A stretch of 64,000 nucleotides of DNA from Octopus vulgaris (taxonomy: Eukaryota): the NCBI GenBank assembly GCA_951406725.2, contig OX597828.1, positions 9,176,001 to 9,240,000 on the forward strand. The letters run 5' to 3'. Shown here one piece after another: positions 412 to 61,629 of the stretch; the first letter of the stretch is position 1, and every line of letters starts with the position of its first letter. The position numbers were made by a program, and so were the translations under genes. The notes below the pieces were generated by a model, which made no database searches, was not told the DNA's origin, and saw nothing but the letters and a program-made list of their open reading frames with translations.

Positions 412-790
412 GTGGTAAGCTCTTAGAATCGTTATCAATTCGTCCGTCTCTAGATTCTGAGTTTAAATTTCGCTGAGCCTTTTATCCTTTCGCTGTCGAT
501 ATATTCAACTTAACTAATCCACCCAAAATTGCTGGCCTTGTGTCTAATTTTAGAAGCTAATATTTCATTTTTGAAGGCGGCGAGCTGGTACAATCATTAG
601 CACGCCGAGCGAAATCTTTAGCGTTAGTTTGTCCGTTTCCACGTTCTTAGTTAAAATTTCACCGAGTCTGACTTTGCCTTTCATTCTTTCGACATCGATA
701 TAATAAGTACCAGGTGAACACTGGGCTTAATGTAATCAAATTAGCCACTCCACTTAAACTGCTGGCATTGTGACAAAATTTGAAACCAGT
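412..790 (+). mobile_element. Two tandem tRNA-derived SINEs (Nin-domain-like family A)
   Basis: Head GGCGGCGAGCTGG at 576, B-box-like GAGTTTAAAT, and central 'gactttgcctttcattctttcg...ataagtacc' domain. Many copies elsewhere in the window. Confidence 0.8.
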
Positions 791-1567
791 ACTTAATATT
801 CCGGAAACAACGTTCTATGTCACGCTAATTTTACCAAGATTTCTACAAACACCAGCCAAGAAAAATACCTTCAAATATATATAATCTTTTACAAATTTCG
901 GATCACAAGCGATCTACATAACCATTCAGGCAGTACATATAAATTTTTGTAATCATCCTAAGTTAATTAATTTTTATTATTCTGCCACAACTCGTATAGT
1001 ACAATTATATAATACTAATGTATATCCCAATCAAATGTGCAATGATATTGTAGTTTCCTTTGATCTGTATTGAGTAATTGGGTACTTTGATCATCGATTT
1101 CCCATCCGTTTACATATTTTAACTACTTTTGTAACCTTGCCAGAATTGAAAATATTAGACATTATTAATCTAAACTAGATTCTATGTACTAGCTACTTGT
1201 AACACCACTATTTTGCTTCGATATATGTTGGCTTGTTTACAAAGACATAACTTAAATATTACATCATTATATTTGTTTTCTTTTGTACCAAAGTATGTAT
1301 TTCATCCAAATGGGTAAAATGCATTCATCATTAATGATTAATTCAGGTAACCACTAGCGGGTGACCTTTCCGACCAACAGAATGTGTTTGCAGGTAGCAT
1401 CTACTTCTGCGACAAAAATATTAATTGTAGTCTCCTTACTAATGAAAGTAGATTTATGGTGCAATAGAGGCAACAGCAGTTACTATTTGCTGTGCACACT
1501 TACAGATGTGCTCTCTGTTGAAGTGCCAAGGTGGTAGTGTCTTCTTTTGCCGTTCTGTTATATTTTA

Positions 1568-10322: not shown

Positions 10323-11389
10323 ATATATGTATATATACATCATATATATATATATGTATGTATATATATATAGTTACATATATATGTATGTATATACAAA
10401 TGTATATAATATGTGTGTTTGTGTGTGTGTTTGAGTGTGTGTGTGTGTAAGTGGCAGAGTCTTCTTGTGTATGTTCGCATGAATGTAAGGCGGTGTGTTT
10501 GTATTTGCGTATATATAAAATATCTTGTAGTATAAATATAAATTTCTCCAGCGGAATAACAGTCTCTTAAAAATGATAATCTATGTTTTTTATGACTTGT
10601 CATGTTTTGTTTAAAATATAGTTATATATCGCCAAATGGTACGAATTCATTATAATCCTCTTCATTTATGTCAGTTCAAGTCACTCGCTGACGTCAAATG
10701 TTGGTAGGTAGTGAGATACAACACATAAACATATAGCAGTAAATAGATACACACACCCACACACATACACATACAAATACATAATTTTTTATTCAAAATA
10801 CCTCAGGAATATATCTTGAATACAGGAATCTATGAAAGAGCTTTATAAACTATACTCAGAGCAATATTGCTTAGACGAGCTAATTGAAGAAAGCAATTCA
10901 GAGTGTATTTATATGGAAAGAAAATATATCTGCAATATCGTAACACGCGTCTTCCTTCTAGAAACCGGTTAATTCTTACACAGAACCTTGTTGGACATTT
11001 ATGAACCGAATTTTTTGATACATTACTTCACCGTACTCAAAGTATGAAAATAACCAATCAATCAATGTCATGTGGATCTACATTAGGTTAAACCTTTGAA
11101 AATTCTACAGCAATATTTACTTTTAATATACATACGGTTTGAATTATTTAATAGATTCAACGAAATAACATACTTGTAACAATTAACTTAAGCCTCCCTT
11201 AAACTGCTCTTTATTAGGTTAAAAAGTTTTTTTAGATGCAAACTCATGCACATACTCACATTTTTGCAAACATGCATACATATATATCCATATATGTGTG
11301 TGCATCTAGGTGTGTCAATTACAAGAAAGTACTGCTGTTATAATAAACTGTATAATAATGTAAACATATGATAGCGTAAAAATATTACA

Positions 11390-11798
11390 ATTTTTGGCTC
11401 AAAGCCAACAATTTCGGTGGGTGGGGGATAAGTCAATTACAGCAACCAAAATGCCCAACTTGCACTTATTTTATCGAGCCTCACAAGATAAAACGCAAAG
11501 TCGAACTCGACGAAGCGCAGCTAAGTTTTTTGCCTGACATGCTAAAGATTCTGCCAGCTCGCCGTCTTATGTAAGCATATAATAATCCATTCTACTATCA
11601 GCACAAGGTCTGAAATATGGAGGAGGGGACTAGTCGATTGTATCGACCCCAGTGTTTCCCTAGTAATTAATTTATCGACCACGTAAAGGATGAAAGGCAA
11701 ATTAGACCTCGGAGGAATTTGAACTCAGAACATAGCGACTGGCAAAATACCGTTCAGAATTTCGCCCAGTTTGCTAACGATTCTGCCACCTCGCCAGC
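11390..11798 (-). mobile_element. Two tandem SINE family A copies
   Basis: Both end ctgccagctcgcc-like (reverse complement of the head). The second copy is flanked by the direct repeat ttatgtaagcWtataataat. Confidence 0.85.
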
Positions 11799-11899
11799 TT
11801 ATGTAAGCTTATAATAATTGCATTCCATCATTTCTTTCAATGTGCAGAAAGAATAGGTGTCATAACCCTTTACCAAAGAAGTAGAATCTTTAGAGAAAG

Positions 11900-14274: not shown

Positions 14275-14570
14275 CTGTTTGTGTATGTGTAGGTAGCTAC
14301 GTGGGTTGGTGGTAACGGAGATAAACAGAGTTAAGCTTGATATAATGTGTTTCCTGTACTGGGCTTACCCAACTCTAAGTTATTGTCACACAGAAACAGT
14401 GTTAGGAAAGTTTGATACACACTTGACTGCAATTTGCTGCTCGAACCATGGCGTTCAGCTGTCAGAGTCATTAGCACGAATTACTGCACGAGTCTTCATT
14501 AAGATGTTCGTGGTAATGTTATGTTTAGGAAGTCCTATAAAGAAGTTTCCATTGCGAATGAGTGAAGGTT

Positions 14571-14790
14571 TACTCTTTTATTTGTTTCAGTCATCTGACT
14601 GTGGCCATGCTGCATCACCGCCTTTAGTCGAGCAAGTCGACCCCAGGACTTATTCATTGTAAGCCTAGTACTTATTCTATCGGTGAAACCGAACCTCTAA
14701 GTTACGTAAACTCACCAGCATCGGTTGTCAAGCTATGTTGGGGGACAAACAGAGACACACAAAGATATACACACACATACGTATATACAT

Positions 14791-14830
<40 letters not shown>

Positions 14831-14920
14831 ATATATATACGACGGGCTTCTTTCAGTTTCTGTCTACCAAATCCACTCACAAGTCTTTGGTCAGCTACTT
14901 ACCACACACCAAATCCTACT
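14571..14920 (-). mobile_element. SINE family B
   Basis: Clear match to 23034-23445 with internal (CA)/(TA) tract. Confidence 0.85.
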
Positions 14921-14964: not shown

Positions 14965-15397
14965 TAAAATTTTGGCGCTAGACTTGCAATTCGGTGGATG
15001 GTTAAGTACATCGATGCCAGTGCTCTAGTGGTACTGATTTTATTGCTACTGAATAGATGAAACGTAACATCAAGCTCCGCGGAATTTGATATCAGAATGT
15101 AAACAAGAAATAGACAACGTTAAGCATTTTTCACGGCGTGCTAAAGATTCTATCAGCTTGCAGCCACTGTATAATTATTATTGATTTCAAATTTTGACAC
15201 AAGGCCAGCAAATTCGAGCAAGAGTGTAAATTGATTATATCAGCCCCAGTCGCCTACAGGTACTTATTTTAGCGATCCCGAAAGGATGAAAAGTAAATTC
15301 GACCTCAGTGGAATTTGAACTCAGAAAATATAACGGCGGGCAAAATGCTGCTAACCATTTTGCGCGATGTGCTAACGATTCAACCAGCTCGCCGCCT
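14965..15397 (-). mobile_element. Two tandem SINE family A copies
   Basis: 'cccgaaaggatgaaaagtaaattcgacctcagtggaatttgaactcagaa' and head reverse complement ccagctcgccgcc at ~15397. Confidence 0.85.
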
Positions 15398-16520
15398 TAA
15401 TAATAATTAACAGTTGTTGAATCCCAACATTTTGTTAATCCCAACATTTTGCACTGAAATAAATTAAGAACTGTCATTCATCAAATAACGCTTTGAAGTC
15501 ATTTATTCTTATTTTGGAGTCCAAATTGTAAATCGATATTTACATAAATTTTAAAGAAAAAAACATATATTGCAATTGAAGTCGACATTTGAAATATACC
15601 CAGGAATAAGTTTAAGTACAAAGACCGCACAATCTATGTCAATAGTGTTGCAGGCTATTTCGATCCGATATAATCTATGGCTAGATAACATCCGGAAACC
15701 ATCAAAGACTTATTGGATATCCCATCATTATATAACTCAAACCATGCATTGTTATTTATTCGTCGTAAGATGAATGGTCCTTAACTGATTTATACCACAA
15801 TCTTGCAACTGTCAAATCTCATTTTGGACAGAACCAACAAGGAAGTCTTTACAATTTCGTTCCACCTCTAAAAACAGAAAGCGAATCAGCTTCAATCAAC
15901 TCTATCGTTTCAAAAGAAGGAATAACACATTGCATAACGTGGTTTTATATGCATTGTAACTGGAGCGAGAGGGATTTATACTTGATGATCAAGGAGGAAC
16001 GCACTTCATGAAATGCACAGCAAAGTAATATATTATTACTAGAAATTGCACGCAAATCATACAAGAGTGTTTTAACACAAAAATAAAAGGACTAAAATAC
16101 AGTAAAGCATTCAAAAAGCATTGACAATGCAAGTAGCCTATACATACTCATCTATGCAGCGAAGGTAAAAAAATTCCTAATATAAGATGCTCTATAAATA
16201 GTTTAGACGCATAAGAATTAAATTATTCCAGTAACAGTGATCGATATGGAGAGTGTTTTACCTGTATGACATAATTATACAGCAAATACGAGAGAAGGGG
16301 AGTTTCCTGAAAAGGGAAGGATTATTGTAAGATACATTTCGCCCGTCGCTCGATCCATTGTCTGAAACCACTGCACCATCACCCTTACTATTGCTGGAGG
16401 TTTCTGATTGAAAATAACACGAATTGTGCTGAATTTTTTAGATTGTGGGAAAGTGAGAAAAACTAAATTTAAACAGGAGTATCTAAATTTCACACGAAAT
16501 CCGTATAGCCACCGAGTATG

Positions 16521-18393: not shown

Positions 18394-18860
18394 GGCTCGC
18401 TGTGTGATAAGAAGTTTGCTTCCCAACCCCATTATTCTGTGATCAGTTTCACTGCCTTGCACCTTGGGAGAGTGATATTCTACTATTGACTCCGGTGGAG
18501 TTTTGATTCATTTGATTCATTTGATTCACCTTTTGAGTGAATTTTCTAGGGGGGAAACTGAAAAGAAGCCCGTAGCTGTTCTGGTGCTGACATCAACGTG
18601 TTCTGCTATGTCAGGGAACTTGCAACCAGGATTGTGATTGGTCCTGGACGAGGTGATGTGACACCTTAACTATTCTGGTGAATTGCTCAATCCCTCTAAT
18701 AATAATTCTATGTGAGTGTGTAAAAGTACGTGTGTGTATGTGTATCTGTTTGTTTTTGTATTACTGTTTGTCCTCCACTATCGGTGAAGTGATGTGTGTT
18801 TACATCCCTGTAACTAGCGGCTAGGGAAAAGAAAGCGATAGAATATGTAACTGTACTTTA
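18394..18860 (+). mobile_element. SINE family B interrupted by a Tc1-like fragment (18575-18700)
   Basis: The 5' half ends 'gaaaagaagcccgt' and the 3' half resumes at ~18730. The insert matches 19624-19690. Confidence 0.65.
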
Positions 18861-18865
18861 AAAAA

Positions 18866-19372
18866 TTATGTTCTTACTCGTTCAGAAATTCTACTAATTA
18901 TCTTCTCGTTAGTCCATAGAATAAACAGTGATTCATCGGAGCAGACAGGGCACCTCCTGGAAATTATATTGTATGGTTTCTTATAACTTAGCATGAACCG
19001 ATCAATGCTGAATTTCGTTTTATCCTCCTTCAGTTGCCATACAAATAAATACGATAAATGCTCACGCAGAGAAAACATATAGATGTCCTTCGATGAACCT
19101 CTGTATGAGTACAAATCTTCTATATAAATGTACCGTGCACACAAGGGGAGGGTCCTATGCTTACATCGGGCAGACGGCTGATCCATTTAAGAAAAGTTAT
19201 CTTCTCGTTAATCCACAAAAGAAACAGGAATTCCTCGGAGCAGAGATGGCATCTTCCGGAAATTATATTACATGGTTTCGCATACCTTACTATGGACTGA
19301 TTAATGCTGTACTTTGTATTATCCTCCTTTCGTCGTCATACAAAATCGGCTGAAGATGTTGAATGTCTCTTG
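18866..19372 (-). mobile_element. Two tandem Penelope-like GIY-YIG C-terminal fragments
   Basis: LSYLFVWQLKEDKTKFSIDRFMLSYKKPYNIISRRCPVCSDESLFIL matches the PLE 'LS.Y.W.LK....Y.I.W....PYN....C..C..E' motif. A second partial copy lies at 19196-19372. Confidence 0.75.
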
Positions 19373-19454
19373 AATATATATATATATGTATATATATCTA
19401 GCCAAATTCTTCATTACATAGTCTCGAGACTCACACTCGACCACTGTCAGAAAA

Positions 19455-19800
19455 TACAGCAAATCTGGACTTGTTGCAGAATATGACAGTGTCGCAAAAC
19501 ACTAGTCGCCTCTCCATCATCTCACTGGCCCAATCTTTTCCCCGCTTGATATTGGCTGGTCAAAGAAGTGGCTTCCTTGTTGCGACTCTGCCATAGTAAC
19601 CAAGTGTGTGGATATACCTGTCAGCTGTTCTAGTACTGACATCAACGTGTTCTGCTATATCAGAGGACTTGCAACCAGTATTGTGATTTTCTGAAATGTT
19701 ACGCTGACTATGTCCATCTCCAGAAGCACCCACAATACGGCTTCTTTGAAATTGAGAGAGTTCCATGGCTTCTTTTGTACATGACATGATTAAACAGTCA
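19455..19800 (-). mobile_element. Tc1-like transposase N-terminal remnant
   Basis: ELSQFQRSRIVG..GHSQRNIS and VSTRT..RYIHTLGYYGRVATRKPLL are typical Tc1 HTH and linker motifs. Confidence 0.8.
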
Positions 19801-20324: not shown

Positions 20325-20410
20325 TAATATCATTAGGGAGTATATCTCCAAACTTACAGGGAAAAATTCAATTTAGTAATAAAGCAAATTTCACAATATA
20401 AATATATAAT

Positions 20411-20600
20411 ATATATAAATTAGAGAAAAACCACTATTATGTAATTCAAACAATGCTAGACATAAACCATATCATATAGAAAAAATAAAATATATTATAA
20501 AACATAACTAGTTTTATAATATATTTTATTTTTTTCATGATTTGTTTATTGTTGTTTGAATTACATAATAGTGGTTTTTCTGTAATTTATATATATATAT
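20411..20600. repeat. Imperfect palindrome between (TA)n tracts
   Basis: gaaaaaccactattatgtaattcaaacaa pairs with ttgtttgaattacataatagtggtttttc; the inner aaaataaaatatattataaaac pairs with gttttataatatattttatttt. Confidence 0.85.
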
Positions 20601-20610
20601 ATATATATAT

Positions 20611-21498
20611 ATTAATAATTATCGCCATACTAATATGGCAGTCTATAAATATAAAACTAAAGCTCTCGCTGATTAGCTCAAAGAGGCCATCGCCTCTAGC
20701 TAGCTATATGACACACGAATCTGCGTTCATTACAAGCTTCGAACGGAAAAGACCCTGATACGACCTTCAAATCTCCAAGAATAACACATACCTTTTAGGT
20801 TAGCAAATGAAAGAAAACGAATCAACCCAGCTTTAGGTGTCGCTACCGACTGTCTGTTGCAAGATTTTATTTACCTAGTTACAGTGGAATACATCTACTT
20901 GTTTTCAATAATAGAAATATTAAAATTACTAAGTCTCTCTAAAGGAGATTACGGCAGCGTTACTGGATATTAATAGTTATCGCCATCATCATCATCATTG
21001 TCATCATTATCATCACTATCGTCGTCATCATCCTCATCATCATAATCATCATCATCATCATCATCATCATTATTACTACTACTACTACTACTACTACTAC
21101 ACTACTACTACTACTACTACTACTTTTAATATTTCTATTATTGAAAACAAGTGGATGTATTCCACTGTAACTAGGTAAATAAAATCTTCGAACAGACGGT
21201 CAGTAGCGACACCTGCTGGGTCTGACTACGCTGCATTGATAAAGGGCAACAACCCTGAAACATGTGTGCAGATGTCTGACTAGCAAGGTGAAGCGGCTGA
21301 CCTCCCCTGTTCGAAGGTTGTAATGAACGCAGGTTCGTGTGTCATATAGCTAGCTAGAGGCGATGGCCTGTTTGAGCTAATCAGCGACAGCTTTAGTCTT
21401 ATATTTATAGACTGCCATATTAGTATGGCGATAACTATTAATATCCAGTAACGCTGCCGTAATCTCCTTTAGAGAGACTTAGTAATTTTAATATTTCT
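20611..21498. mobile_element. Inverted pair of ~360-bp circularly permuted units (retrozyme/PLE pseudo-LTR-like)
   Basis: 20611-20986 and 21124-21498 are reverse complements with different start points. Each is terminally redundant (18 bp with one mismatch, and 13 bp). Confidence 0.8.
21231..21271 (+). ncRNA. Minimal type I hammerhead motif with U3-A8 core
   Basis: ctgca-TTGATAA-aggg caacaa ccct-GAAA-catg-TG-tgcag. All three stems are intact, but the cleavage triplet is GUG (non-canonical). Confidence 0.7.
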
Positions 21499-21785
21499 CT
21501 CTCTCTATATATATATGTTATAATTATATACATAATTATAACAAGGAATTGACTATATGCCTCACCACGCACTGTAAAAATAGACGGCAAAAGACCCTAT
21601 TACGACCTTCAAATCTCCGAGAATAACACACTACATTTTAGGTTAGCAAATGAAAGAAAATGAATCAAAAACTTTGGATAACTACATAAAAATTCCTGTT
21701 TCAAGCTTCAAGGAAATAGATATTATCTATTGCTATCATCAGCGGATTATTTTGCTCAAGTCGTCTTCCAACAAGTAGCTGTTTT

Positions 21786-21908
21786 CATCATCATCATCAT
21801 CTTCGTCGTCGTCGTCGTCGTCATCATCATCATCATCATCATCATCATTTTCATCATTATCATCACCATCGTCGTCATTATCCTCAGCATCACCATCATC
21901 ATCATCAT

Positions 21909-21966
<58 letters not shown>

Positions 21967-22012
21967 ACTACTACTACTACTACTACAACTACCACTACTA
22001 TCATTTTTATTA

Positions 22013-22086
<74 letters not shown>

Positions 22087-22110
22087 GTTATTATTATTAT
22101 TATTATTATT
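21786..22110. repeat. Compound CAT/CGT/TAC/TGC/TAT trinucleotide tract
   Basis: Direct reading; its first part resembles 20985-21123. Confidence 0.95.
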
Positions 22111-22683
22111 GAGTGAGCGAGCAGAGCATGCCATCAAAGTGACACTAGGGTAAAATATACGAAGCCCAGTATACCCATCATGACTACCCGTCTGATAAGG
22201 GTACACCAGGCACATGCATCACAAACATATGTGCGCGACATGGTGATCTCATATCAAGATAAACAGCACATGACCTTGCAGATGGGGCCCAGTTACAATT
22301 TTCTTCAGATCGAGTAACCCATCCCGCTCAAAGGTCCCTGAATAAGGATTGTTTAAGGACGTTGAACGAAACACCCATGTTTCCAGAGGTGAATTATTCA
22401 AACCCCAAAGAATCCTTCTCAACACATGGCTATGATGCTCCCCCACTACTTCTGCTCGTGATCAGAGATGCACATATCGTCAGTCACTAAGGGACATGCT
22501 CAACTGGTTAAGGTCAAACAACTGACAAGCAAATCTGTGGTATTGAGCAGAATATTTGCTGTAGCCCATCTTTTATACCAAGACAAAACAATGTATATGA
22601 TAACACTTCCAATCAGTTAAGATCAGAAGCCATGAGAGCCACTGCCTGGTACTGCATCAGGGCATTTATACTGCATCAGGACA

Positions 22684-23033: not shown

Positions 23034-23216
23034 AGGCGCAGGAATGACTGTGTAGTAAGTAGCTTGCTTACCAACCACATTGTGCCTGGTTTATTCCCAC
23101 TGCGTAGCACCTTGCGCAAGTGTCTTCTACTGTAGCCTCGGACTGACCAAAATCTTGTGGGTGGATTTGGTAGACAGATATTGAAAGAAGCCTGTCGTAT
23201 ATATATATATATATTA

Positions 23217-23247
<31 letters not shown>

Positions 23248-23445
23248 GTTTGTGTGTGTGTGTAAATGTATGTGTGTCTGTGTTTGTCCCCCCAACATCG
23301 CTTGATAACAGATGGTGGTTCGGCAAAACAGACCGAAAGAATAAGTACTAGGGTTGCAAAGGCTAAGTCCTGGAGTCGATTTGCTCGACTAAATGTGGTA
23401 CTCCAGCATGGCCGCAGTCAAATGTCTGAAACAAGTAAAAGAGTA
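23034..23445 (+). mobile_element. Near full-length SINE family B
   Basis: tRNA-like head, 'caccttgcgcaagtgtctt' domain, internal (TA)/(TG) tract, tail ccagcatggccgcagtcaaatgtctgaaacaagtaaaag. Confidence 0.88.
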
Positions 23446-23819
23446 AATCAGGGTAACTACTGGATTTCTCAAAATTTCATAAAATTGCCGATATACTCCA
23501 GTGTTCGATTGTGACACTTTTTACATAAATGTCAAAATTCCTTCAAAGTAAAATCCCATTCATAGTGGAATCAGCTATATTCCACTCAGATAATCGTGTG
23601 TAGTACAGCATATAATTTGCAAACACTCTCTCACGGAAACATGCTGGACTCTTTGAAAAACCGCAAAATAATGATGATACAAATACATTAGATAAATATA
23701 TACAGTAAAATATTCCGTCAATTAATCTAGATCTGAGATCTACACAGTTTCAGACTATTCCAATACACATACATTCATACCTACCGACGTATATACATAT
23801 ACACCTAAACCCACATATA

Positions 23820-24728: not shown

Positions 24729-24788
<60 letters not shown>

Positions 24789-24820: not shown

Positions 24821-25486
24821 CCTTAAAGTAAGTTACGTTAACTCTTACTCAAAATTCATTCCCACCGCATTGTACGAAAATACATCTATATGCGTGCAGG
24901 CATCTCGAGAGTCGTCCAGACATTCTAATCATTATCTTCTCGTTAGTCCACAGAATTAACAGGGATTCCTGGGATCAGAGATGGCATCTTCTGGAAATTA
25001 TATTACATGGTTTCGCAATGCTGTTCTTTGTATTATCCTCCTTTAGTCGTCATATAAATCTGCCGAAGATGTTGAATGTCTCTTATTAATTGTCTTAAAA
25101 CTGGCAACATGGTTAAGATAACGGTTCTTAAATGAATCAGCCGTCTGCCCAATCTAAACATAGGGCCCTCCCCTTCTGTGCACGGTACATTTATATACAA
25201 GATTTGTACTCATACAGTGATTCATTGAAGGACATTTTGATTTTTTCTTTGCATGAGCATTTATCGTATTTATTTGTATGGCGACTGAAGAAGGATAAAA
25301 CGAAATACAGCATTGATCGGTCCATTGTATGTTATAAGAAACCATACAATATAATTTCCAGGAGGTGTCGTCTCTGCTCCGAGGAATCCCTGTTTGTTCT
25401 GTGGACTAACGAGAAGATAATTAGTAGACTTTCTGAACGAGTGAGAATGAATTTTGAGTAACCGTTAACTTAATTTACTTTAAGGT
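24821..25486. mobile_element. Inverted pair of Penelope-like GIY-YIG fragments
   Basis: ORF 25132-25461 contains VWRLKKDKTKYSIDRS..KPYNIISRRCRLCSEE; 24821-25084 is a diverged reverse-complement copy. Confidence 0.78.
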
Positions 25487-28643: not shown

Positions 28644-28940
28644 ATCACGTGACCGACAAGGCTATCAGATGTTGCTACACATCGCTGGTCACAATTCGCT
28701 TCGAATTGTTTTAGCCTTCAAATGACGCCACCCCGCTGGCTAAGTGAGCAGGCCAACAGAAGAAAGAGTGAGAGAAAGTTGCGGCGAAAGAGAACAGCAG
28801 GGGTCGCCACCCTTCCTGCCGGAGCATCGTGGGGCTTTAGGTGTTTTCGCTCATTAAACACGCACAAGCCCGTTCTGGGAATCGAAACCGCGATCCTCCG
28901 ACCGCGAGTCCGTTGCCCTAACCACTGAGCCATTGCGCCT

Positions 28941-28942
<2 letters not shown>
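28637..28942 (-). mobile_element. tRNA-derived SINE family C
   Basis: Head GGAGGCGCAATGGCTCAGTGGTTAGGG...GGTTTCGATTCCC; body shared with 37022-37335. Confidence 0.88.
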
Positions 28943-29020
<78 letters not shown>

Positions 29021-37021: not shown

Positions 37022-37335
37022 TTCTATTTAAGCGCCCTTTTCAAGCCTAGCCAGGCTTATGGGCCCGGTTTCCCATTTTCTATGGCGTATGGGTTTCCTT
37101 CAGCTGGACGGGACGCCAGTCCATCGCAGCGTTACTCAAGAAACAAGAAGACAGAGAAAGAGAAAGTTGGGGCGAAAGAGTACAACAGGGGTCACCACCA
37201 CCCCTGCCAGAGCCTCGTTGAGCTTTAGGTGTTTTCGCTCAATAAAAACACACAACGCCCGGTCTGGGAATCAAAACCGCGATCCTATGACCGCGAGTCC
37301 GCTGCCCTAACCACTGGGCCATTGCGCCTCCACAC
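37022..37335 (-). mobile_element. SINE family C with 14-bp TSD
   Basis: TSD ataaccaatttatt at 37008-37021 and 37336-37349; tRNA-like head. Confidence 0.92.
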
Positions 37336-38623
37336 ATAACCAATTTATTGCACAAATATTTTTAACGATACAGGAACCCCCAAGGGCAATGTGAACTCTT
37401 GTTGAGAATCAATGTTCTAGATAAAGCAACGAAATCGTTCAGGAATTACACTCAACTGTCTTATAGATAGATAACCGGTTGCACAGGTAGAGTTTCAGGT
37501 AATAAGCTACGTGCATACAGCTAGGTTAGTTTTGACCAATGGATTGCTCGTTTAGACCTTACCAAATTCTAAATCTAGCACATCGGTTAAATTATTCTGA
37601 ACGAATTTTTTCTGGAAATACATCGCACTTATATACGTCTACATATTGACATATATATTTTTTAGGTATAAGCTCTAGATTGTTCTCCGCTGTTTGCAAG
37701 TAAATTTCGAAATCTCATCGAGCTGTTGAAACAAATTCAATATACAAATTCAAAGGAAATATAAGTTGTGAAACCTTATTATTTCTTTAAAAGCATTCTC
37801 CACGCATAAAGAAACATTTTTCTAACATATCACATATACTTCGCTGATAAAACATATTCTTCTTTATTCATAAAATACATGCAACTGAAGAATTAGCTAT
37901 TTTATATTTGATACACCCACTATGAATACCAGATGAAAGTTACTTCAATAATAAAACTGAAATTATTCTCAATACGCTTGACTATCTTTGAAGATGAGGT
38001 ACTACGTCAATTATGTAAACTTCACGATCTTTTCAATTTACAGATTCATCCAGCTTTATAGTTATTCAGGTAATTAAATAAAAATTCCATTTACAAAATC
38101 GTTTCAATCATTAGTTAGCATGTACCGCATCATCTCTATGGTTGACAATCATGAAAGTGTCATCATGCCAATAATTAACACACGAGTTTCTTTTTCTTTA
38201 TTATTTGTGAATTAGATAATTGTTTAATCACTTTACACTATATTTCTTTTTTTATCAATATCACTGTATAAACATAATGACTATCCTGATGTACAAGGAA
38301 GTATGATTCAACACCAGGGACTATATCAAGAATCTTGCAAAACAAATACAAAAAGTTAATAGTAGAAGTATTTTCAGTTCCTCCGCACTATCATATGCAC
38401 AAACTGGCCAAGTTCTTGTGTTCAACAGTCGTTCGTATTACCCGAAATTCACATCAAGTATTAACCACTAATGATCTCTTAATTTTCAAGAGATCAATTT
38501 CCTTATGCCGAATTGCAGTGTGTGTATGTTTGGTGGGGTGTAGATATAGATATTACAGCTTTGAGGAAGTGGTAATTTTTCTCCCTAAACAATGTTCATG
38601 CTATGCTGTTTAATACGCCTCTG

Positions 38624-39048
38624 GGATCTTTTCGGTTTGAATGGCAGTTTTTAACATAATTTCTAGGTAACTAAAAGATTTTAAACTTCGTATACTGGTA
38701 GAATGTGTTTATAAAATATCTTTTTCTCTTGGCTTTATTAAGAAAATTCTATAGTTTGTAAGATATATGTTGTGTTTCTTCAATTTCTGCAATTTCAACC
38801 AATCAGTGACGTCTATTGAGTTAAAAAGCATTCTGTGCCGTATGAATATGTCCCTCGTTTAAGAAACAGATTGGGTTTATTTACATTTGTGAAGAAACAA
38901 AGATACCCTTCCCCCACCCCTAACCCTAACCCTAACCCTAACCCTAAAAGAGATTGAAATGTAATTGATCGATTCTAGGGTCATAATTATGGGCGACAAT
39001 TTCATATGATACCGCTAGAAAAAACTGCCGTTCAAACCGAAAAGATCC
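38624..39048. mobile_element. MITE with 29-bp TIRs and internal (CCCTAA)5
   Basis: ggatcttttcggtttgaatggcagttttt / aaaaactgccgttcaaaccgaaaagatcc; flanking duplication (c/g)gcctctg. Confidence 0.9.
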
Positions 39049-40699
39049 GGCCTCTGAAAGTAGCGACTGAGATAAACGGTTAACTGGTTTAAATATTTTT
39101 CTCTGAATGGAACTCAGTATTCTAGCTTTCATCTTCAATATCAGTACCATATTTATGCTTCTCTTTCTCGACTCTAAAAATATAATTTGCAGGGCTGACC
39201 TTTGCTGAATTTGAACTCACAACAAGCAGATGTGCAACTCAGTAGTACATGGTAATTTGTTGGACATTTTGTCATTGTGCTACATTAATGATACTAATAA
39301 CGTCCGTTTTTCGCTTTCTTTGTGTTTTGCTCTCATTAATATATATGGCGTGAATGTGTGTGTATGTGTTCTTCTGTATGTGTACGTACGTGTCAGGATA
39401 TGTAGTTACTTTTGTAAACATAAAGAAGATTCAACGTAAAAAAGCACATAAAGACCGTCTATTGAAGAAGTAATTTAGAATTAAATAGATTTAGCATTAA
39501 AATTGATATTATTATTAATGTATTACTTTAGTGTAATTATGTGTTAGGCTTTTTTTTTTCAGGTCATTTGTAAATTAATTCCTTTCACTTGCAAAATATC
39601 AATTTTGTTATCAAAATGATTTCATTAAAATTTCGGTAAAAAGTATTACATTGTTCAAAAATTATCCTATTTAGATGAGATAAACCAATTTATTTTGTCT
39701 TGTAGCTAAAATTTATGTACCATAAAACAAACTTTATGAAGATTAAAAAAAAATATAACTTAAATAGTTTCATATAAATGTATTGTACTAGTAAAGTTAT
39801 TTTCTATTTATTTGACTTTTATGAGAAAGAATGATGATATTACATAATGTAACATTTAACTGATGAATAATTTGTAAATTTTATGGTGAAGTGAATTTTT
39901 TTGTATATTTAAGTCAAAAGCATGCTTCATTAATTAAACTACTTTTGCATTAAATACCTAAATTTAGCGAACTGACAACAATTTATCATTCAACCGTTAT
40001 AGCTGGCAGTCATTAACCTACACCGTTCTCTCCATGTGTGAACAAATATTTAAACGAACATAAAGTATACTTGAGCGGAAGTATCAATTTAATTTTTTAG
40101 CAACAATATGGCTGATGGGAAACACCTCAAGGGAGCGTTCTGCATATTAAGTACAAATACAGCAGTGCCTTGCATATGTAAAATTGAATAGAAAACTTTG
40201 ATTATCAGGTAATAGGTACAAAAATCTCTTTGTAGGGACACTTAAATTCTAAAAACAAAATACAAAACAATTTACCTTAAGTAAGAGCTGTCCAACGAAT
40301 TTTTTAAACAACATACAAAATACAATTTTTCGCAGAAAATTGTGGAACCAGCGAATATGTGTTCCGATTTTGTTAGACCACAGAAGACAAGCATACTCAA
40401 AATAGTACGCACGTAAGCGCAGGTACGGCTAAGAGGCGTCTTAGTTTCACTACTAGGCAATTTGGGTCAGTCACCTTTACTGTAGTCCCACGTCGACTTG
40501 TGAGGAGATTTGGCTGACAACGGCTATATTCCTGAAAAGATCGTCACCTGTAAATATGTCTACCTAGAGAAATCTGCGGATGGTTTAGCGAATCACTTAT
40601 GTATATAGAAATGATAAATAAGCCAGCGGCTTAACAATGTATCGCCAAGAAGGTAAACTGTAATTATTATTAAATATCACACACACACACACACACACA

Positions 40700-41287: not shown

Positions 41288-41478
41288 CACCCACACATAC
41301 AGACCGATGAGCAATAACTTTTTTCCGACTACGACTTTTTTCAAAATGTCCTAAACATGGGGCCTTTACCCAGAAATATAGAAGTAGGAGGTGAAACTGC
41401 AATTTGGTTTTGGTTTCTCGTTCCCTTTTGTAGTTTTAGCGTGGCGATAACTATTCATATATATATATATATACAACA

Positions 41479-42882: not shown

Positions 42883-43049
42883 ATTTATGTATATATATAT
42901 ATATATATAAATATACATATACACACTAATTTCCTCACAAGTCGACGTGGGACTACAGTAAAAGTGACTGACCCAAATTGCCTAGTATTGAAGACGCTTC
43001 TTAGCCGTACAAGCGCTTGTGCGTACTATTTTGAGTATGCTTGCCTTCT

Positions 43050-44058: not shown

Positions 44059-45581
44059 CACATATGCGTTCGTTTGAATATATGTAAATGTACATATATA
44101 TACATACACGCACACACTCACTCTCTCCTCCGTCACAATGACACATTTGTGTGTGTGTGTGTACCTGTATATGAGCATGATATCGTCATTTATAATTCTG
44201 TACGATATTCTTGCAACAAAGTATATCCATATATTTCAATTTTTCTTCATTTGCTGTCAGTAAAGTCAACTGTTGAAGGTTTTAGCAATGAAACTCAAAT
44301 AAAACATGGAATATAGCCAGTAAACTCTGATTGGATGGCATCCGATGCCTTATTTACAGTTTTCAACTTTTATCGCATCAATGTGATGGATTTAAAAGAT
44401 TGATCTGAAGGAAAATTGCCAAATGCTTATTCAAATTAAACTTGGTGTCGATTTGCATGTATACATACGTATTCAATTCAAAAATCTCCAACTTCAATAG
44501 ATTTGAATTATTTTCCTTACTCCTATGTATACACAATAAAATCAAAAACACATTTACTCACACACATATAATTATATATACTGAATCACAGACATCAATC
44601 ACTAGTCTAGTAAAAAGCAATCATTTTGCGACTTTGTGGATTTATATTTATGGATACCTAACTCAAATATTATATGGTTTCTTACACAAATATAATTTCC
44701 CTGTCCTCTAAAGTCTTTAATTGAAAATTTCAATGTCAGAATATATTCTGCAAGCTGAAATTTTCTAATATTCGGGTTGCATTTGTAACATATTGTTTAA
44801 TTTAGCTCTTCCTAATCTGTGAATGATTTCAAACATAATTCTCGTGATTACAAACTTTGTAAGATAAGCATCATGGTCCTTACATATCCACCTTTATAGG
44901 CGATCTTTCTTGCTTTTAGAGGTTTCGGTTTCATTAGTCGGGGACAGTTTCTAATGCTTAGAATTTACTCTAATTCGATAACGTATACACAAATCTACCA
45001 GCAGAGAAGGATATGGTTACGTTTGAAGATTTCACTAAGACACATTAATATGAATAATGTTCATTAATATTGGATTATGACCGAAAAATTATACGAGGAC
45101 AAGTTGCCGAAATGACATCCCTCCGATGGATTTCTTGAGTAACGTTACTCGATGGAGTGCACAGCATGGTGATTAGACATTTTGTCCAGATTGGGTCGCA
45201 TTGTTTCCCAAAGAGAGGTCACAGATCCTCTATTAATGACATATCGCAGTAAGGAATCACAAGATAGATTCCGCAGACCGAGTCAACCGACAGAAGACCT
45301 AGCGGTAGATTAACAGACATTTAATTGGTTAATATCCACAATTTCAGTTGATCACTCTTGGGAATCAAGCTGAATTTTGTGCTTCTTTTAGGAACACCCG
45401 TGATGCCTAAGGACTCTTACCCTACACCTCTTTTAGGTATAGTGGGCGAAGAACATGAATATATGATAGTAAGAGCAAGACTAAATATCACATTATGATG
45501 TCTTTGGTAAAGTAATGATACTGATGCAACATCATATTTTAAATTTTTCTTTGATCTAACTCTCGTAAGCAACGTTCTTAT

Positions 45582-46575
45582 TAATAAACCTTTCTACTAT
45601 AGGCATGAGGTCTGAAGATTTGGGGTAGAGGGCTGGTCGATTACATCTACCGCATTGCATGACTGGTACCGTTTTTCATCAAAACCGAAAGGATGAAAGG
45701 CAAAGTCGACCGCAGCTCAGAATTTCAACCGACGTGCTAAAGATCCTGCCAGTTCGCTGCCTTACCCTTATCATTAATAACCCTTTCTACTATAGGCACG
45801 AAGCCTGAAGTTTTGGAGGAGGGGCAAGTCGATTAAATCGACTCCAATATTTCACTGGTACTTAATTTATCGACCCTGAAAGGATGAAGGTCAAAGTCGA
45901 CTTCGGTGAGATTTGAACTTAGAACGTAACGGCAGACGAAATACCTATTTCGTTACTACCCACAAGGGGCTAAACACAGAGAGGACAAACAAGGACAAAC
46001 AAACGGATTAAGTCGATTATATCGACCCCTGTGCGTAACTGGTACTTATTTAATTAACCCCGAAAGGATGATAGGTAAAGTCGACCTCAACGGAATTTGA
46101 ACTCAGAACGTAACGGCAGACGAAATACCTAATTCGGGAGAGTGGTAAGCGGATTACATCGACAGCAGTGGACAACTGGAATTCATTTTATCAACCCTGA
46201 AGTTATGAAGAGCAAAGTCAACCACAACGTAATGTGAAATAAGAAGGTAAAGATGGCCGAAATATCCCAAATAATCTTGTCCGGCGAAATAACAATTCCG
46301 CCAGCTTGTCGACTTAACGAAAAAAGGAAGACTAATAATTCTATCTACTGCATACACACGGCCTCAGACTCAGGGGAAGGGATTAAGTCGATTACATCGA
46401 CCCCAGTGAGTAACTGGTACTCTAATCGAGCCCGAAAGGATGAAAGACAAAGTCGACCTTTGTGGAATATGAACTCAGAACGTAACGGCAGACAAAAAAC
46501 CGCTATGCATTTCGCCGAGCATGCTAACGATCTTGCCAGCTCGCCGCCTTAATATAATAATAATATAATGATAAT

Positions 46576-46650
<75 letters not shown>

Positions 46651-46860
46651 GCTTCAAATTTTGCCACAAAGGCAGCAATTTTGGGAGAGGGATCAGTCGA
46701 TTACATCTACACCAGTGTTCAACTGGTGCTTATTTTATCGAACCCGAAGGATGGAAGGCAAAGTCGACCTCGGCGGAAGTTGAACTCAGAAGGTAGCGAC
46801 GAGCGAAATACCACTAAACATTTCGTCCAGCGCGCTAACAACTCTTCCAGCTCACCACCT
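45582..46860 (-). mobile_element. Tandem cluster of ~6 SINE family A copies
   Basis: Repeated 'cgaaaggatgaaaggcaaagtcgac' and 'gtcgattacatcgac' units about every 180-220 bp, with (TAA)n at 46553-46647. Confidence 0.9.
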
Positions 46861-46921
46861 TATATAATAATAATAATAATGATGATGATGATGATACTAC
46901 TACTACTACTACTACTACTAC

Positions 46922-46968
<47 letters not shown>

Positions 46969-48169: not shown

Positions 48170-48505
48170 ATGTGCATCACTGATCACGAGCAAGGGTAGC
48201 GAGGGCACACCAGAGGCATGTGTGGAGAGTGATACGTAGGGATTTGAATAATTCACTAACGGAAACGTTACTGTTCTGTTCATCATACTTCAAACAACAC
48301 TTATTGAGCGTCATTTTCGACCGAGATAGCCTACTGGACCTGAAGACAATTCTAACTGAGCCCCACTTGAAAGGTAAGGCGATGTTTGTCTTCATATGAG
48401 GTCAGCAACACGCGCACATATGAATCAGGTTATGATGCACGTGTCTGGAGTATCCTTGTCAGACGGATAGTCATGATGGGTGTATTGGCCATGCGGTTCA
48501 TTCAC
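48170..48505. mobile_element. Diverged copy of the 22111-22684 repeat
   Basis: tgtgcatcactgatcacgagca, tttgaataattcac and tcagacggatagtcatgatgggt match the reverse complement; followed by (AAT)-like repeats. Confidence 0.75.
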
Positions 48506-55074: not shown

Positions 55075-55290
55075 AATAACCCTTTCTATTTTAGGATACG
55101 AAGCTTCAAATTTTGTGGGAGATTGGAATAGTCGATTACATCGATTCCATTGCTCAGCTAGTACTTATTTCGTCGACCCAGAAAGGGAAAATAGCAAAGT
55201 CGACTTTGACTGAATGTGAAATCTGAACGTAAAGGCGGACGTATTGCCGCTAACCTATTTGTCCGATGCGCTAACGATGCTGCAAGAGCC
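55075..55290 (-). mobile_element. SINE family A
   Basis: gtcgattacatcga..gtacttattt..gaaagg..caaagtcgac..cgctaacga. Confidence 0.8.
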
Positions 55291-57122
55291 TTCAATTTAT
55301 TAATAACAATTAACGATCACTGAAAACAAGGCAACAGTATATTGGCAATGATGTAGAACATAGAGAGTTATGGCAAATTTTACACCCATTAAGCAGTGAA
55401 GAAATGTTAGAATCCCATTCGTTCTCATTGTACTATATTCTTCCTTTCTTCATAAGTAATAGTTACAAATATATTCTAAATATTTTCCCTATAAATTTCA
55501 TTCCTTACAAGTTTTGTAGCTAACACTTTTCTTTATCACAAGTTTCACTTCGGGGTTATTCGTGCTGTATGCTTAGTTAAACTCACTTTGAAATCCTTTT
55601 AGATTCTCCTGAGTCACAGATTTATTCGGTAAATATATTTCAAGCTACTTTGTTTATATTTTCTTTTTTTTTATATCCCATTTATCTAATATAACTTATG
55701 TCGTCTAATCACCATTATCTTACTCATCATTGCCATTGTCTGCTATATTTTCCTTCTCCTGTTTCTCTTGTAACAAGGGTTCTGTCTCTTTGATTACCAC
55801 TTAAGATTTAATTCATATATGTATTTTCTTATCTAAAATCGTAAATATATCAATCGGAGATTCAGACAGCTTTCTGTAATCTCGATTAATCTATGTATTG
55901 ACACAAATTCAATTTTGTTCTGTGTCAAGGAAAAAAAAAAGTAGGTAACTGAAAAAATCTGAAAACCTAATCCTGACAGCAAACCAACGCAAAAAAAAGT
56001 GATAAGAAATGCGTTAATAATACCATTTGAAGATTATTTGGGTGTCTGTAGAGCAAAAACATAACTGTTTTAACGAGATGACCTTTTTTGCTATTTTCAG
56101 CCGTCAACAACAGAAGCGCTTTCATTTGATCTCGTCACGTCTATGATATTAGCCGAAGAAAGCAGCTGCCTAGGAATACAGATGCAGAATACCAAACTGA
56201 ATAAACAAACAAATTTAATAAACATCAAGAGACTAAGCCGGTTAAAACATCTGAAAATGGGAAAAAGAGAATAAATATCGGGGCTAAATAACAGTTTGAC
56301 AGCAATCGGAATTATATTGTTATATTATAGTTTCTCATCATGTGATTTTGTAACCCACTGAGAGACATAGATTGAAATACAAGCTACTTGATGGCTGAGT
56401 ATTCTATTCTGTTTCGATTTCTCTTCGAACCTATTTAACTATAGTCACACAATGTTCTTGGAAGAGACACGGTAATCGTAATATCTGGATGATTTAATGT
56501 GCTCAAATTGATGAGAATGTGGAGTTACAGTATCGGGTTCATGTGAATTTCAACAATTGCATCGAACTATACATCACTTATGGAGGAAACTATGTCGAAT
56601 AGAATTATTAAAATATGCATTTTCGCCTATTTATCCCTGGTTCTACTCCCAACCTCACAATACGAGATATCAACTGATGCCCAATCAATTTTTGTATATA
56701 GATGTACCTAAACCAGTATAGACCAGTACTTCATCTGAAATCTTAATTCGAACATTTTACAAAGTGATCGAAAAAATCTTTCAAAAGAAGAAAATCTCTA
56801 AAGTTTCTCTTTCTAGCTTAAGTAAAGTTTAGAGGTACTGTAGCAAAACTGGTCATTCCGTATTAATCTAATGCATACAAAAAGGAATATTATAATTTCA
56901 AAGAAATAAAATAGGGACTTAGAAATGATTGAATGGCTGTGTGTATGTGTGTGCGTGTGTTTGTGTGTGTGTCTGTGTGTGTGTCTGTAAGTGTGCGTGA
57001 GTGTGCGTGTGCATGTGTGTATACGTTCATATATCTACCTGTGCATCTATCTATACATACATACATACGTACATGCACAAACATGAACGCGCAGACACAT
57101 TCACACACACCGGTGTATATGG

Positions 57123-59054: not shown

Positions 59055-61629
59055 GATCTTCATCTTAATGTAGGTAGATAAACATTACCCTTGCTTAACG
59101 CGTAATAGCAAACCTGACGAGTGTTACATAATCAGTATCGGACCTACCATCGTTATAAGACCCAATCATTGCTGTTTGCCTAATTTCCTTCATAGTGATT
59201 ATTTTTAAAAGACAATAATATATTTTTGTAGACTTTAGGTTTCCGAACAGGAAGGTTGTAGATTTTAATATATTAAGGAAATATTTGAACCCAATATTAA
59301 AAGTAGTATAAACAAGTAAGATGCAAATATGCAAATATTTTTGCAACACATCACTTCAGCCTATATATTTTGTTTCCTCATCTCTCCTTTCTCAATAAAG
59401 GATCTCAGTTGTTCACATAACTTCCTACAGTTTAATTGAGCGCTGTATAAATTACAGTTAATTCGACTTGAAAAACGCATATTATGTGAAAGCTTTTGCT
59501 CAATAACTGCCTCATTGACTTCATGCAGATTGCTTCGTATATGAATATCCGTCAATATCATGTTTTGAATACTCTCACCAAGAGATAGAAAGGTTTTCAT
59601 ATCCATTCAACAGCTGCAAGAGCCACAGGTAACTGAATATTTAACAGAAATTGCGATAATCTTAAATATATTCAATATATTTCCCCAGGATTGGAAAGCG
59701 TTTCAATTCATGCTTTTCTTGAACGATTCGCAAATAATTTTCCTAATTCAGTGAATGAAGACACGTAGAAAAATATATTCTTTCAATAAAAAATGCAAGC
59801 AAATGTTGCATTATATTCCACAACACTCCCTACCTAATGCGCCATGCAGCCATTCCATCTTTTAAAAGGACGGTAACTAGCCTGCCTCGAACTGACGATA
59901 TATTTTTCACCTGTAATTACTGATATTTTTTTCTGATATTATCTAGTACTTTCTATTATGTGATGCATTTTCATTGCTGTTCTTTTCCCTAAAATACTGG
60001 TAATCCACGAACAGTTTCGCATATCTGAAATTATATTGCGTCATATGACACGTAAATTTTATTTTTTAGATTATTAGAAAGTGATCTGCAGAGTGAATCT
60101 CAGTGCGATTTATAGGTGAAAGCATGTCATGTAGAAAAATAAAACAGAGCAAATGTAAGTATTAGTGCTCAATGCAGAAGTCGAAGCTGATTGCAAATAG
60201 GAATTTCCTATATAAAGCAAAAATCTCACGTAATCCACCCAAAGCGTATAATGAAGAAGAGTATAGTAAGTACCAAACGCATTGTCTCCGGATGCTTACT
60301 CGAACTCATTGGAATATATTGCAAATTGGAGATTTTACATAGAGACTCTTGGACCATGCTTTTAAAATACGAATGGGAAAATGGATGTATAAACATGCAC
60401 GAGAAATGTTAGATTCTATTTATTCAACTACAAGCAAACAATTTACGATATACAAGAGAAAGCGAAAAAGGGCAAAGTGAAATTCTAAGCTGTGAAATAA
60501 AAGCAAGCATTGAACTTCCGATGTAAATGATTAATCAGCTTGTTCAAACTTAGTAATAAACTGAATAATATAAACTGACCAGGTCTGAGTAAAATTTACG
60601 ATGAAAAATGTTGCATTGTAAAATCTAAATTATCCCCTATATGAATATAAATACCTATTAGAAAATTACGAAATATTGATCCAAGTAACATACAGAGTAT
60701 TCGTAAATGAGGTGAAGAAGTCGGACACATAAAACAGGGCAGGACAAACATGAGAATTGAAGGAAAATCGAACGCCGAAAGTACGATATATAATCCATTA
60801 CGTTATATATAATGAAGACCGACGAAGTATTCAAAGTATTATACTTATGTCCGCACATAAGAAGCATGTGAATATTCGGGACAAAATAGATTTTAAAATA
60901 AACAAACCTTTGAATGAGCACATTGTAATGTGGCAGGAACTTCAAATACATCTATTGCTGTTTCAAAGTAATCAAAAGAATGTGATGTAATATATATTTA
61001 AAACAAATGAAACAGAGTCAAAAGCACTACCGGCTTTTTTATTGTTATATTTATAGAGTGACATAGTCGCAATTATAACCGCGATGTAATCCAACAAGCT
61101 GTCTATTGCATCAGTGAAGATGGAACAAAAAGCAGCTTAATTTGCTGCTAGTGTTCAAAATCAAACCAAAATTTGCGTTGGCCAAATGAACGCTGCTTTG
61201 AAAATATAAATCTCATTTTCATGAGTATATCATTCATAGGTCACAGTCATAAAAGATACATATAAATGATACTAAAAATCGCGAAATGAGAGAAAATATA
61301 AATGGGAATACCCTTGCAAATGTTCGGTAATTAAAAAGACTTGTTTAACAATAAATAAATAATAAAAGGTACCAATTTGTGACAAATGTCCTATTACATA
61401 ATAGAAACATCCTGTTTCATATAATACACGATTATACACTGCAAACAAATGAAAGCATAACAACGAAAATCCACAAATACACAATATATATAACTCATTT
61501 GAAACTGGAAAAAAAAGAGCGAACCAGACATATACTAAGATAGGAGGCACCGAGCATGAAACATACATTTCACCACATCAAAAAGAGAATAAGTCTATTA
61601 AAATCCAAACTAATAATTATGAGAAGATT

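What the first reader, a model, noticed from the sequence alone, without database searches (positions are those of the whole stretch)
20611..21498. ~360-bp circularly permuted, terminally redundant unit with a U3-A8 hammerhead (retrozyme-like)
Seen: copy 2 (21124-21498) starts and ends with ttttaatatttct (period 362). Inverted copy 1 (20611-20986) starts and ends with attaataRttatcgccat (period 358). The same segments are joined in the same circular order but opened at different points, and there is no ORF. Established: metazoan non-LTR retrozymes are short HHR-bearing units that produce circular RNAs. Inference: these copies derive from reverse transcription of a circular or multimeric RNA. 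Caveat: this copy's cleavage triplet is GUG.
Basis: partly seen in the sequence, partly recalled or inferred. Interest (0 to 1): 0.8.

Follow-up and report, generated by a model that had tools for sequence, protein, structure and literature searches.

The report
High-copy retrozyme-like hammerhead repeat, circularly permuted
This is a pair of inverted copies of an abundant 360-base non-coding animal repeat whose family carries an intact-looking self-cleaving RNA motif; it likely spreads by borrowing a Penelope-type retrotransposon's enzyme to copy a circular or tandem RNA into AT repeats, which would make it a new member of a known kind (animal retrozymes).

Summary
Coordinates, periods (362, 358) and circular permutation are real. 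Correction: only copy 2 holds the hammerhead; in copy 1 that arm is replaced by 79 bp copied from DNA 0.84 kb downstream, and the CAT/TAC spacer is also a local copy. The GUG caveat falls: 99.7-100% of laid depth reads GUC in four public runs. The unit is a high-copy family (3,661 and 4,660 contigs laid; four organism labels), folds strongly as a circle (z -6.4), has no ORF, and many copies end at copy 1's 3' point straight into (AT)n (34 and 29 contigs; a third stub at 41441). The two copies lie head-to-head and share rare alleles, so they are probably one insertion, not independent witnesses. Best reading: a non-autonomous, Penelope-mobilised retrozyme-type element; remnants of a Hydra-like Penelope endonuclease with the same head-to-head layout lie nearby. 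Tandem arrays, cleavage and circular RNA are untested. Copy 1's in-register mosaic may be template switching or an assembly artefact. The scan noted a similar-behaving, hammerhead-free repeat in another genome; no sequence look-alike.

The parts
20588..20612 (.). (TA)n tract into which copy 1's 3' end runs; likely left half of the target
20611..20986 (-). Copy 1: permuted unit, one turn plus 18-20 nt, starts at unit position 21425 and ends at the family's preferred 3' end (21444); hammerhead arm missing
20747..20825 (+). Foreign 79-bp segment inside copy 1, a copy of 21589-21668; shares 8 of 8 listed alleles with that neighbouring copy; in register with both templates
20984..21124 (+). (CAT)n(TAC)n spacer between the two 5' ends; duplicate of the array at about 21834-21950 (8 of 8 interruptions in phase, P about 0.002)
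21124..21498 (+). Copy 2: complete 362-bp unit plus 13-nt terminal redundancy
21170..21318 (+). Predicted long rod carrying the hammerhead at its tip
21231..21271 (+). Type I hammerhead: helix I 5 bp, U3-A8 core, helix II 4 bp with 6-nt loop, helix III 2 bp with palindromic top; residue 17 (21266) is G here, C in the family; cleavage would be after 21266
21413..21444 (+). Predicted hairpin (21413-21430) and the family's recurrent 3' end at 21444
21499..21517 (.). (CT)n(AT)n tract after copy 2's 3' end; likely right half of the target
21518..21787 (.). Unrelated downstream repeat D (lower copy number in 21515-21675, near-unique beyond); source of copy 1's foreign segment; not homologous to the unit (z about 0)
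21785..22110 (.). Compound (CAT)n(TAC)n(TAT)n microsatellite; source of the spacer
41436..41460 (+). 25-bp stub of the unit ending at the same 3' point, straight into (AT)n
   Evidence: shuffled expectation 0.025 matches
24894..25443 (.). Broken GIY-YIG-type Penelope endonuclease remnant (25243-24894, -) with an inverted 5'-truncated copy (25273-25443, +), head-to-head; candidate helper lineage, no DNA likeness to the unit
18875..19377 (.). Second rearranged remnant of the same endonuclease, 90% like the first over 333 bp

Best explanation
These are two dispersed copies of a high-copy, 362-bp, non-coding hammerhead-bearing repeat, likely a non-autonomous retrozyme-type element that a Penelope-like retrotransposon's enzyme copies from a circular (or uncleaved tandem) RNA into (AT)n tracts. 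Shown: family abundance, GUC triplet in the family, circular continuity of the sequence, 3' ends running into (AT)n, head-to-head layout, local origin of the spacer and of copy 1's middle. Inferred steps: (1) source copies in tandem are transcribed; the hammerhead, whose palindromic 2-bp helix III suits a dimer fold, cuts the multimer to monomers that are ligated to circles; (2) a GIY-YIG/RT Penelope protein nicks both strands of an (AT)n site and starts reverse transcription inside the RNA, preferentially at 21444; (3) each strand's synthesis goes once round and stops 13-20 nt after a full turn, giving permuted, terminally redundant copies with 3' ends facing out; (4) the left nascent strand switched twice onto the neighbouring genomic DNA, capturing the 79-bp segment and the CAT/TAC spacer. 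Both copies are dead ends: one or no hammerhead, so neither could release a monomer; G17 arose after insertion.
For: Triplet: C at 21266 in 218306/218894 depth (87 contigs, X1), 136223/136490 (83, X3), 1124/1130 (14, X7), 73.7/73.7 (6, X12). No majority change at U3 or A8 among the 40 rows shown (119 hidden). Abundance: 3661 and 4660 contigs laid; summed depth 1e5-1e6 on the unit against about 25-37 on the near-unique flank (ratio of order 1e3-1e4, a rough order only); 20 of 24 listed runs, 9 studies, 4 organism labels hold it. Circular fold z -6.4, helices I and II pair with probability 0.97-1.0. Circular continuity: copy 1 and one diverged X12 contig (21459 to 21128 with 31 letters between) cross copy 2's opening point; 62 and 77 contigs run over the stretch's ends. 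Loose ends at 21444 into (AT)n in 34 (X1) and 29 (X3) contigs, the largest shown, plus copy 1 and the 41441 stub. 7 of the 15 joints shown change strand. Copies share 12 of 13 family-variable alleles, three of them rare. Literature: a Penelope protein cuts and extends both strands at AT-rich DNA and starts RT internally (PMC11167929); inverted 5'-adjacent copies and (TA)n targeting in PLEs, Hydra clade with hammerheads (PMC8557442); U3-A8 occurs in PLE hammerheads (PMC4209133); mollusc retrozymes are 350-390 bp (PMC7229834). Endonuclease remnants whose relatives carry CxCx5C, YIG and CxxC..E motifs lie 1.3 and 3.4 kb away with the same head-to-head layout.
Against: No tandem array, cleavage or circular RNA was seen; no genome is held. 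The back-junction could not be counted because 21482-21524 was skipped as repeat. 567 loose-end rows and 20 joints are hidden, so a junction into a PLE ORF in a minority of copies is not excluded. The unit shows no DNA likeness to the nearby PLE remnants. In vitro, the Anolis Penelope uses uncleaved RNA and needs no hammerhead cleavage, and 8 of 9 predicted Xenopus retrozymes did not cleave. Copy 1's junctions are not among the joints shown, so copy 1 rests on the assembly alone. Rfam finds no hammerhead.
Confidence: 0.72

Rival explanations
1. The unit is the pseudo-LTR of an autonomous Penelope-like element; the copies are ordinary 5'-truncated, partial-tandem and inverted insertion products, made from uncleaved multimeric RNA with no circle.
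For: U3-A8 and small palindromic helix III occur in PLE pLTRs; fixed internal RT start and head-to-head copies are PLE traits; retrozymes and pLTRs are close kin.
Against: The sequence closes on itself at about 360 bp with no ORF; share of laid DNA that runs on into unlike sequence is 0 in X1 and X3, and the loose ends shown lead to (AT)n or to variants of the unit, not to a common body; helix II is 4 bp, not the 7-8 bp of min-HHRs.
Confidence: 0.13
2. Copy 2 is a real family member, but copy 1 (and the spacer) is partly an assembly-consensus mosaic or a purely local DNA rearrangement of copy 2 and the downstream DNA, so the second permutation point says nothing about an RNA template.
For: 20747-21124 keeps register with both templates (unit offset within 7 nt, downstream offset 842, 843, 850) and has a micro-mosaic right junction; copies share rare alleles; 3 of 5 substitutions in 20826-20986 match the downstream DNA in a forced, biased alignment; copy-1 joints are not among 15 of 35 joints shown.
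Against: Copy 1 ends exactly at the family's recurrent 3' end; it carries the family allele at 21370 where copy 2 has a private one; its foreign segment differs from D at 5 of 79 positions and the spacer differs from its source; an independent contig crosses the same junction.
Confidence: 0.2
3. The copies came from extrachromosomal DNA circles excised from a satellite array and integrated by single crossover at a short match; the redundancy is duplicated target, and no reverse transcription is involved.
For: Gives exactly one unit plus a short repeat; all four ends show microhomology with their flanks.
Against: A 25-bp 3'-anchored stub and dozens of ends at one position into (AT)n fit target priming with 5' truncation, not crossover; the flanks on the two sides of each copy differ.
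Confidence: 0.05

Closest known systems
Metazoan non-LTR retrozymes (Cervera & de la Pena 2020, PMC7229834; Li, Clavereau & Pollet 2026, bioRxiv 10.64898/2026.07.22.740005)
   Same: Non-coding unit in the 150-450 bp range (mussel 350-390 bp), GC 42%, type I hammerhead with weak palindromic helix III, strongly self-paired circle with the ribozyme free to fold, high copy number, dispersed monomers, PLEs in the same genome.
   Different: Seen here only as dispersed 1.04-mers opened at different points, head-to-head, 3' ends in (AT)n; U3-A8 core; tandem arrays and circular RNA not shown.
Penelope-like elements, pseudo-LTRs; Hydra clade (Craig et al. 2021, PMC8557442); Poseidon PAc (Frangieh et al. 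2024, PMC11167929)
   Same: Recurrent internal 3' end, AT-rich/(TA)n targets, inverted copy adjoining the 5' end, hammerhead, U3-A8 variant known from Schistosoma Cercyon PLEs (PMC4209133).
   Different: No RT/GIY-YIG ORF; unit closes on itself; no DNA likeness to the local PLE remnants.
Type I hammerhead ribozyme, canonical metazoan form
   Same: Core, 4-bp helix II, 2-bp palindromic helix III, NUH triplet GUC in the family; U3-A8 covariation is natural and active (PMC3088659).
   Different: Helix I 5 bp; pair 10.1-11.1 is A-U rather than the usual G-C; this copy has G17, which strongly impairs minimal hammerheads (PMC3884650 abstract); below all Rfam thresholds.

Membership tests
Non-LTR retrozyme | Short non-coding unit (150-450 bp), no ORF, GC under 50% | tested here: met
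   362 bp, GC 0.42, longest ATG-ORF 8 aa on the sense strand
Non-LTR retrozyme | Type I hammerhead with intact core and NUH triplet in the family | tested here: met
   this copy G17, copy 1 none
Non-LTR retrozyme | Multi-copy, dispersed in the genome | tested here: met
Non-LTR retrozyme | Tandem arrays with at least two hammerheads | tested here: inconclusive
   None in the window; family sequence is circularly continuous; no genome held; contigs too short
Non-LTR retrozyme | Stable self-paired circular fold | tested here: met
   circular MFE -121.6, z -6.4; the opposite strand also scores z -5.7
Non-LTR retrozyme | Self-cleavage of the RNA | not testable with these tools
   needs in vitro transcription
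Non-LTR retrozyme | Linear and circular monomer RNA in tissues | not testable with these tools
   only contigs available, no run on record as RNA
Non-LTR retrozyme | PLEs present in the same genome | tested here: met
   endonuclease remnants; assignment by motif comparison with PMC8557442, no Pfam hit; no intact PLE seen
Autonomous PLE pseudo-LTR | Adjoins an RT + GIY-YIG ORF | tested here: not met
   no ORF at this locus; no such junction among loose ends shown, 567 hidden
Autonomous PLE pseudo-LTR | Inverted copy at the 5' end, microsatellite targets, recurrent 3' end | tested here: met
Autonomous PLE pseudo-LTR | 30-40 bp tail between two RT start sites | tested here: inconclusive
   the two 3' ends are 54 nt apart; recurrence of 21498 not visible because 21482-21524 was skipped
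Plant LTR retrozyme | LTRs with type III hammerheads, PBS/PPT, 4-bp TSD | tested here: not met
   type I only, no LTR pair

The most novel reading that the evidence does not exclude
This family records, in thousands of copies, one-turn reverse transcription of a circular RNA: a (TA)n-targeting Hydra-type Penelope dimer primes on both strands of one site, each enzyme copies the circle once and stalls on its own start, and the nascent strand can hop in register between the RNA circle and the target duplex. That would be direct genomic evidence that circles, not linear multimers, are the retrotransposition template of animal retrozymes.
Probability: 0.3. Interest if true: 0.7.

Novelty: new member of a known kind. 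Interest (0 to 1): 0.42.

Why it matters
The retrozyme model proposes, without direct evidence, that circular RNAs are copied into the genome by Penelope enzymes. A family this abundant, with dispersed copies whose ends can be mapped, makes that testable by computation alone: a pile-up of copy lengths just above one unit would point to a circle, a smooth spread to linear multimers. It would also add a probably unannotated ribozyme family to this animal group. The kind of element itself is known.

Tried and rejected
Own genome: none held, so copies could not be collected. Rfam: no hammerhead, only microsatellite and inverted-repeat noise. Metagenome scan with a 28-nt pattern: 0. Expression: no RNA holder listed on record; X7 and X12 are guessed RNA and contigs only, so they count neither for nor against transcription or circles. 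Idea that copy 1's middle is an alternative ribozyme module or a diverged homologue of the arm: rejected (no descriptor hit, z 0.6; D versus unit z about 0). A hammerhead-like CUGAUGA/GAAA spacing on the minus strand of 21690-21750 fails the descriptor and lies in near-unique DNA: treated as chance. GUG as family trait: rejected. Scattered-substitution test for a consensus artefact: inconclusive, alignment biased. One block offset (21215-21221) was off by one and was corrected. PLE remnant identity: Pfam, word-indexed protein search and Atlas gave nothing; phmmer gave 22 hits, some spurious. Earlier findings by sequence and by place: none. Supplement of PMC7229834 could not be read and bioRxiv supplements are closed; they, Repbase or Dfam may already list this family.

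Full report
Setting. The window is AT-rich, microsatellite-laden animal DNA. From recalled repeat content it looks like an octopus; no call verifies this. No whole genome is held, so family-level evidence comes from one run search and one laying of public contigs on 21124-21787 (4 of the 24 listed runs).

Observation. Copy 2 (21124-21498, +) has an exact 13-nt terminal repeat at period 362; copy 1 (20611-20986, -) has an 18-nt one with one mismatch at period 358; copy 1 aligns to the doubled copy-2 unit across copy 2's junction. Shared parts differ at 11 of 308 positions plus a 3-nt insertion. There is no ORF. A type I hammerhead lies at 21231-21271: helix I 5 bp, U3-A8 core, helix II 4 bp, helix III 2 bp with a palindromic top, residue 17 G. 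It is the only descriptor hit in 64 kb, with none in 30 shuffles; Rfam does not score it. Copy 2 folds far better than shuffles, linear (z -6.1) or circular (z -6.4), with the ribozyme on the tip of a long rod; copy 1 does not (z -0.7).

The family. 20 of 24 listed runs, from 9 studies and four organism labels, hold the unit. 3661 and 4660 contigs of two DNA-type runs lie on the stretch; summed depth is 1e5-1e6 on the unit, about 4e3-1.4e4 on most of the downstream repeat and about 25-37 on the near-unique end. The tool warns that this is no copy number; I read it only as an order of thousands. At 21266 the family reads C in 99.5-100% of depth in all four runs, so the triplet is GUC and the window's G is private. 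No change at U3 or A8 is among the 40 best-supported rows (119 hidden). U3-A8 is a known natural covariation (PMC3088659, passages) and occurs in Schistosoma PLEs (PMC4209133, parts 1-2 of 4); G17 impairs minimal hammerheads (PMC3884650, abstract). Listed contigs overlap across all of 21124-21481, one diverged X12 contig joins 21459 to 21128 with 31 letters between, and 62 and 77 contigs run over the stretch's ends, so copy 2's opening point is not a family terminus. The junction itself could not be counted: 21482-21524 was skipped as repeat and 6 joints were dropped in X12.

Ends. The best-supported loose end is at 21444, into (AT)n, in 34 (X1) and 29 (X3) contigs (567 rows hidden). That is exactly copy 1's 3' end, and a 25-bp stub at 41436-41460 ends at the same point into (AT)n (0.025 matches expected in shuffles). 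Copy 2's 3' end runs through (CT)4 into (AT)n. So both 3' ends face outward into AT tracts and the 5' ends face each other. The other loose ends shown are variants of the unit; none leads into a common foreign body. 7 of 15 joints shown change strand (some may come from the unit's own hairpins), and two single-contig joints skip 88 bp of the ribozyme arm in both DNA runs.

One event. Copies 1 and 2 share the allele at 12 of 13 family-variable sites, including three rare ones (21168, 21326, 21373). Copy 1's foreign segment shares 8 of 8 listed alleles with the neighbouring D copy, several rare in D's family. The CAT/TAC spacer repeats the interruption pattern of the array at 21834-21950 (8 of 8 in phase, 5 identical, P about 0.002). 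Thus 20747-21124 alternates between the reversed unit and the downstream DNA while keeping register with both. This is unexplained in detail: template switching during a two-ended insertion, or a consensus mosaic in the assembly. Copy-1 joints are not among the 15 of 35 joints shown, which decides nothing since the shown ones have depth above 50. Either way the two copies are not independent witnesses.

Mechanism. Copy 2 spans the cleavage site, so its template was a circle or an uncleaved multimer, not a cleaved linear monomer (inference). Both copies stop 13-20 nt past one turn from different starts; under random truncation that is about 1 in 250 for the pair (my estimate, no call), which favours a circle if copy 1 is real. 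Against this, the Anolis Penelope protein uses uncleaved RNA in vitro; the same work shows cutting and extension of both strands at AT-rich DNA and internal RT starts (PMC11167929, parts 1-2 of 4), which fits the fixed 3' end and the head-to-head pair. PLE insertions often carry an inverted copy at the 5' end, and Hydra-clade PLEs have hammerheads and insert into (TA)n (PMC8557442 and its preprint, passages and section 11). Broken endonuclease remnants at 24894-25443 and 18875-19377 match proteins such as P0008 and P0014 that carry CxCx5C, YIG and CxxC..E motifs, as described for Hydra; the first shows the same head-to-head layout. They share no DNA with the unit, so they show only that such a helper lineage exists here.

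Comparison. It works like a non-LTR retrozyme (PMC7229834, parts 2-4 of 6; bioRxiv 10.64898/2026.07.22.740005, parts 1-3 of 5; PMC6155905, passages). Size, fold, ribozyme, abundance and PLE co-occurrence are met; tandem arrays, cleavage and circular RNA are untested, so membership is likely, not shown. The local copies correspond to the 'monomers' of the 2026 preprint, unable to release a unit. Searches (25 of 97 listed; 16 of 18 listed) showed no paper on a cephalopod hammerhead repeat, and a 2026 octopus repeat annotation has no occurrence of 'ribozyme' in its main text (PMC13282606, passages); unread supplements, Repbase or Dfam may hold the family. Searches were search listings used to find the papers above. 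The scan's notes have no sequence look-alike and one behavioural analogue in another genome (unchecked).

Verdict. Observation partly confirmed, interpretation partly supported and strengthened at family level. New member of a known kind; interest 0.42, higher if the length distribution shows one-turn copying of a circle.

Noticed in passing
window 24894-25443 and 18875-19377: Broken Penelope-type GIY-YIG endonuclease remnants, Hydra-like by motif comparison, each with inverted pieces; 90% alike over 333 bp; the first runs toward (AT)n at 24742-24785.
   Followed up: partly
window 62100-63290 (+), upstream frame 61816-62199: Non-LTR reverse transcriptase ORF (RVT_1, E 2e-30) with G in place of the second catalytic aspartate; looks like a Dong/R4-type LINE (clade recalled, not tested), preceded by (TAA)n.
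   Followed up: partly
window 21515-21675: Separate repeat family D, lower copy number, unidentified; an X12 contig continues beyond it on both sides.
   Followed up: partly
window 20396-20610: Inverted repeat with 54-nt arms (91%), MITE-like, lying between two (TA)n tracts directly left of copy 1.
   Followed up: no
window 574-800, 11388-11818, 15017-15407, 45580-46961, 55075-55306: SINE-like family ending in (TAA)n, with several tandem copies at 45.6-47 kb (period about 310-375).
   Followed up: no
window 22166-22475 and 48170-48488; 14569-14894 and 23143-23447; 28758-28947 and 37146-37336; 40382-40510 and 42928-43049: Further interspersed repeat pairs, 75-89% alike.
   Followed up: no
window 18574-18639 and 19623-19688: 66-bp direct repeat, 91% alike, flanking the region with the endonuclease remnant.
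   Followed up: no
window 38918-38947: (CCCTAA)5, an interstitial telomere-type repeat.
   Followed up: no
window 61038-61065: 28-bp match (86%) to unit positions 21392-21419; may be chance or a decayed fragment.
   Followed up: no
contigs laid on 21193-21238: Depth dips four- to tenfold over the 5' side of the rod, where indel variants cluster; may mark subfamilies with a different arm.
   Followed up: no
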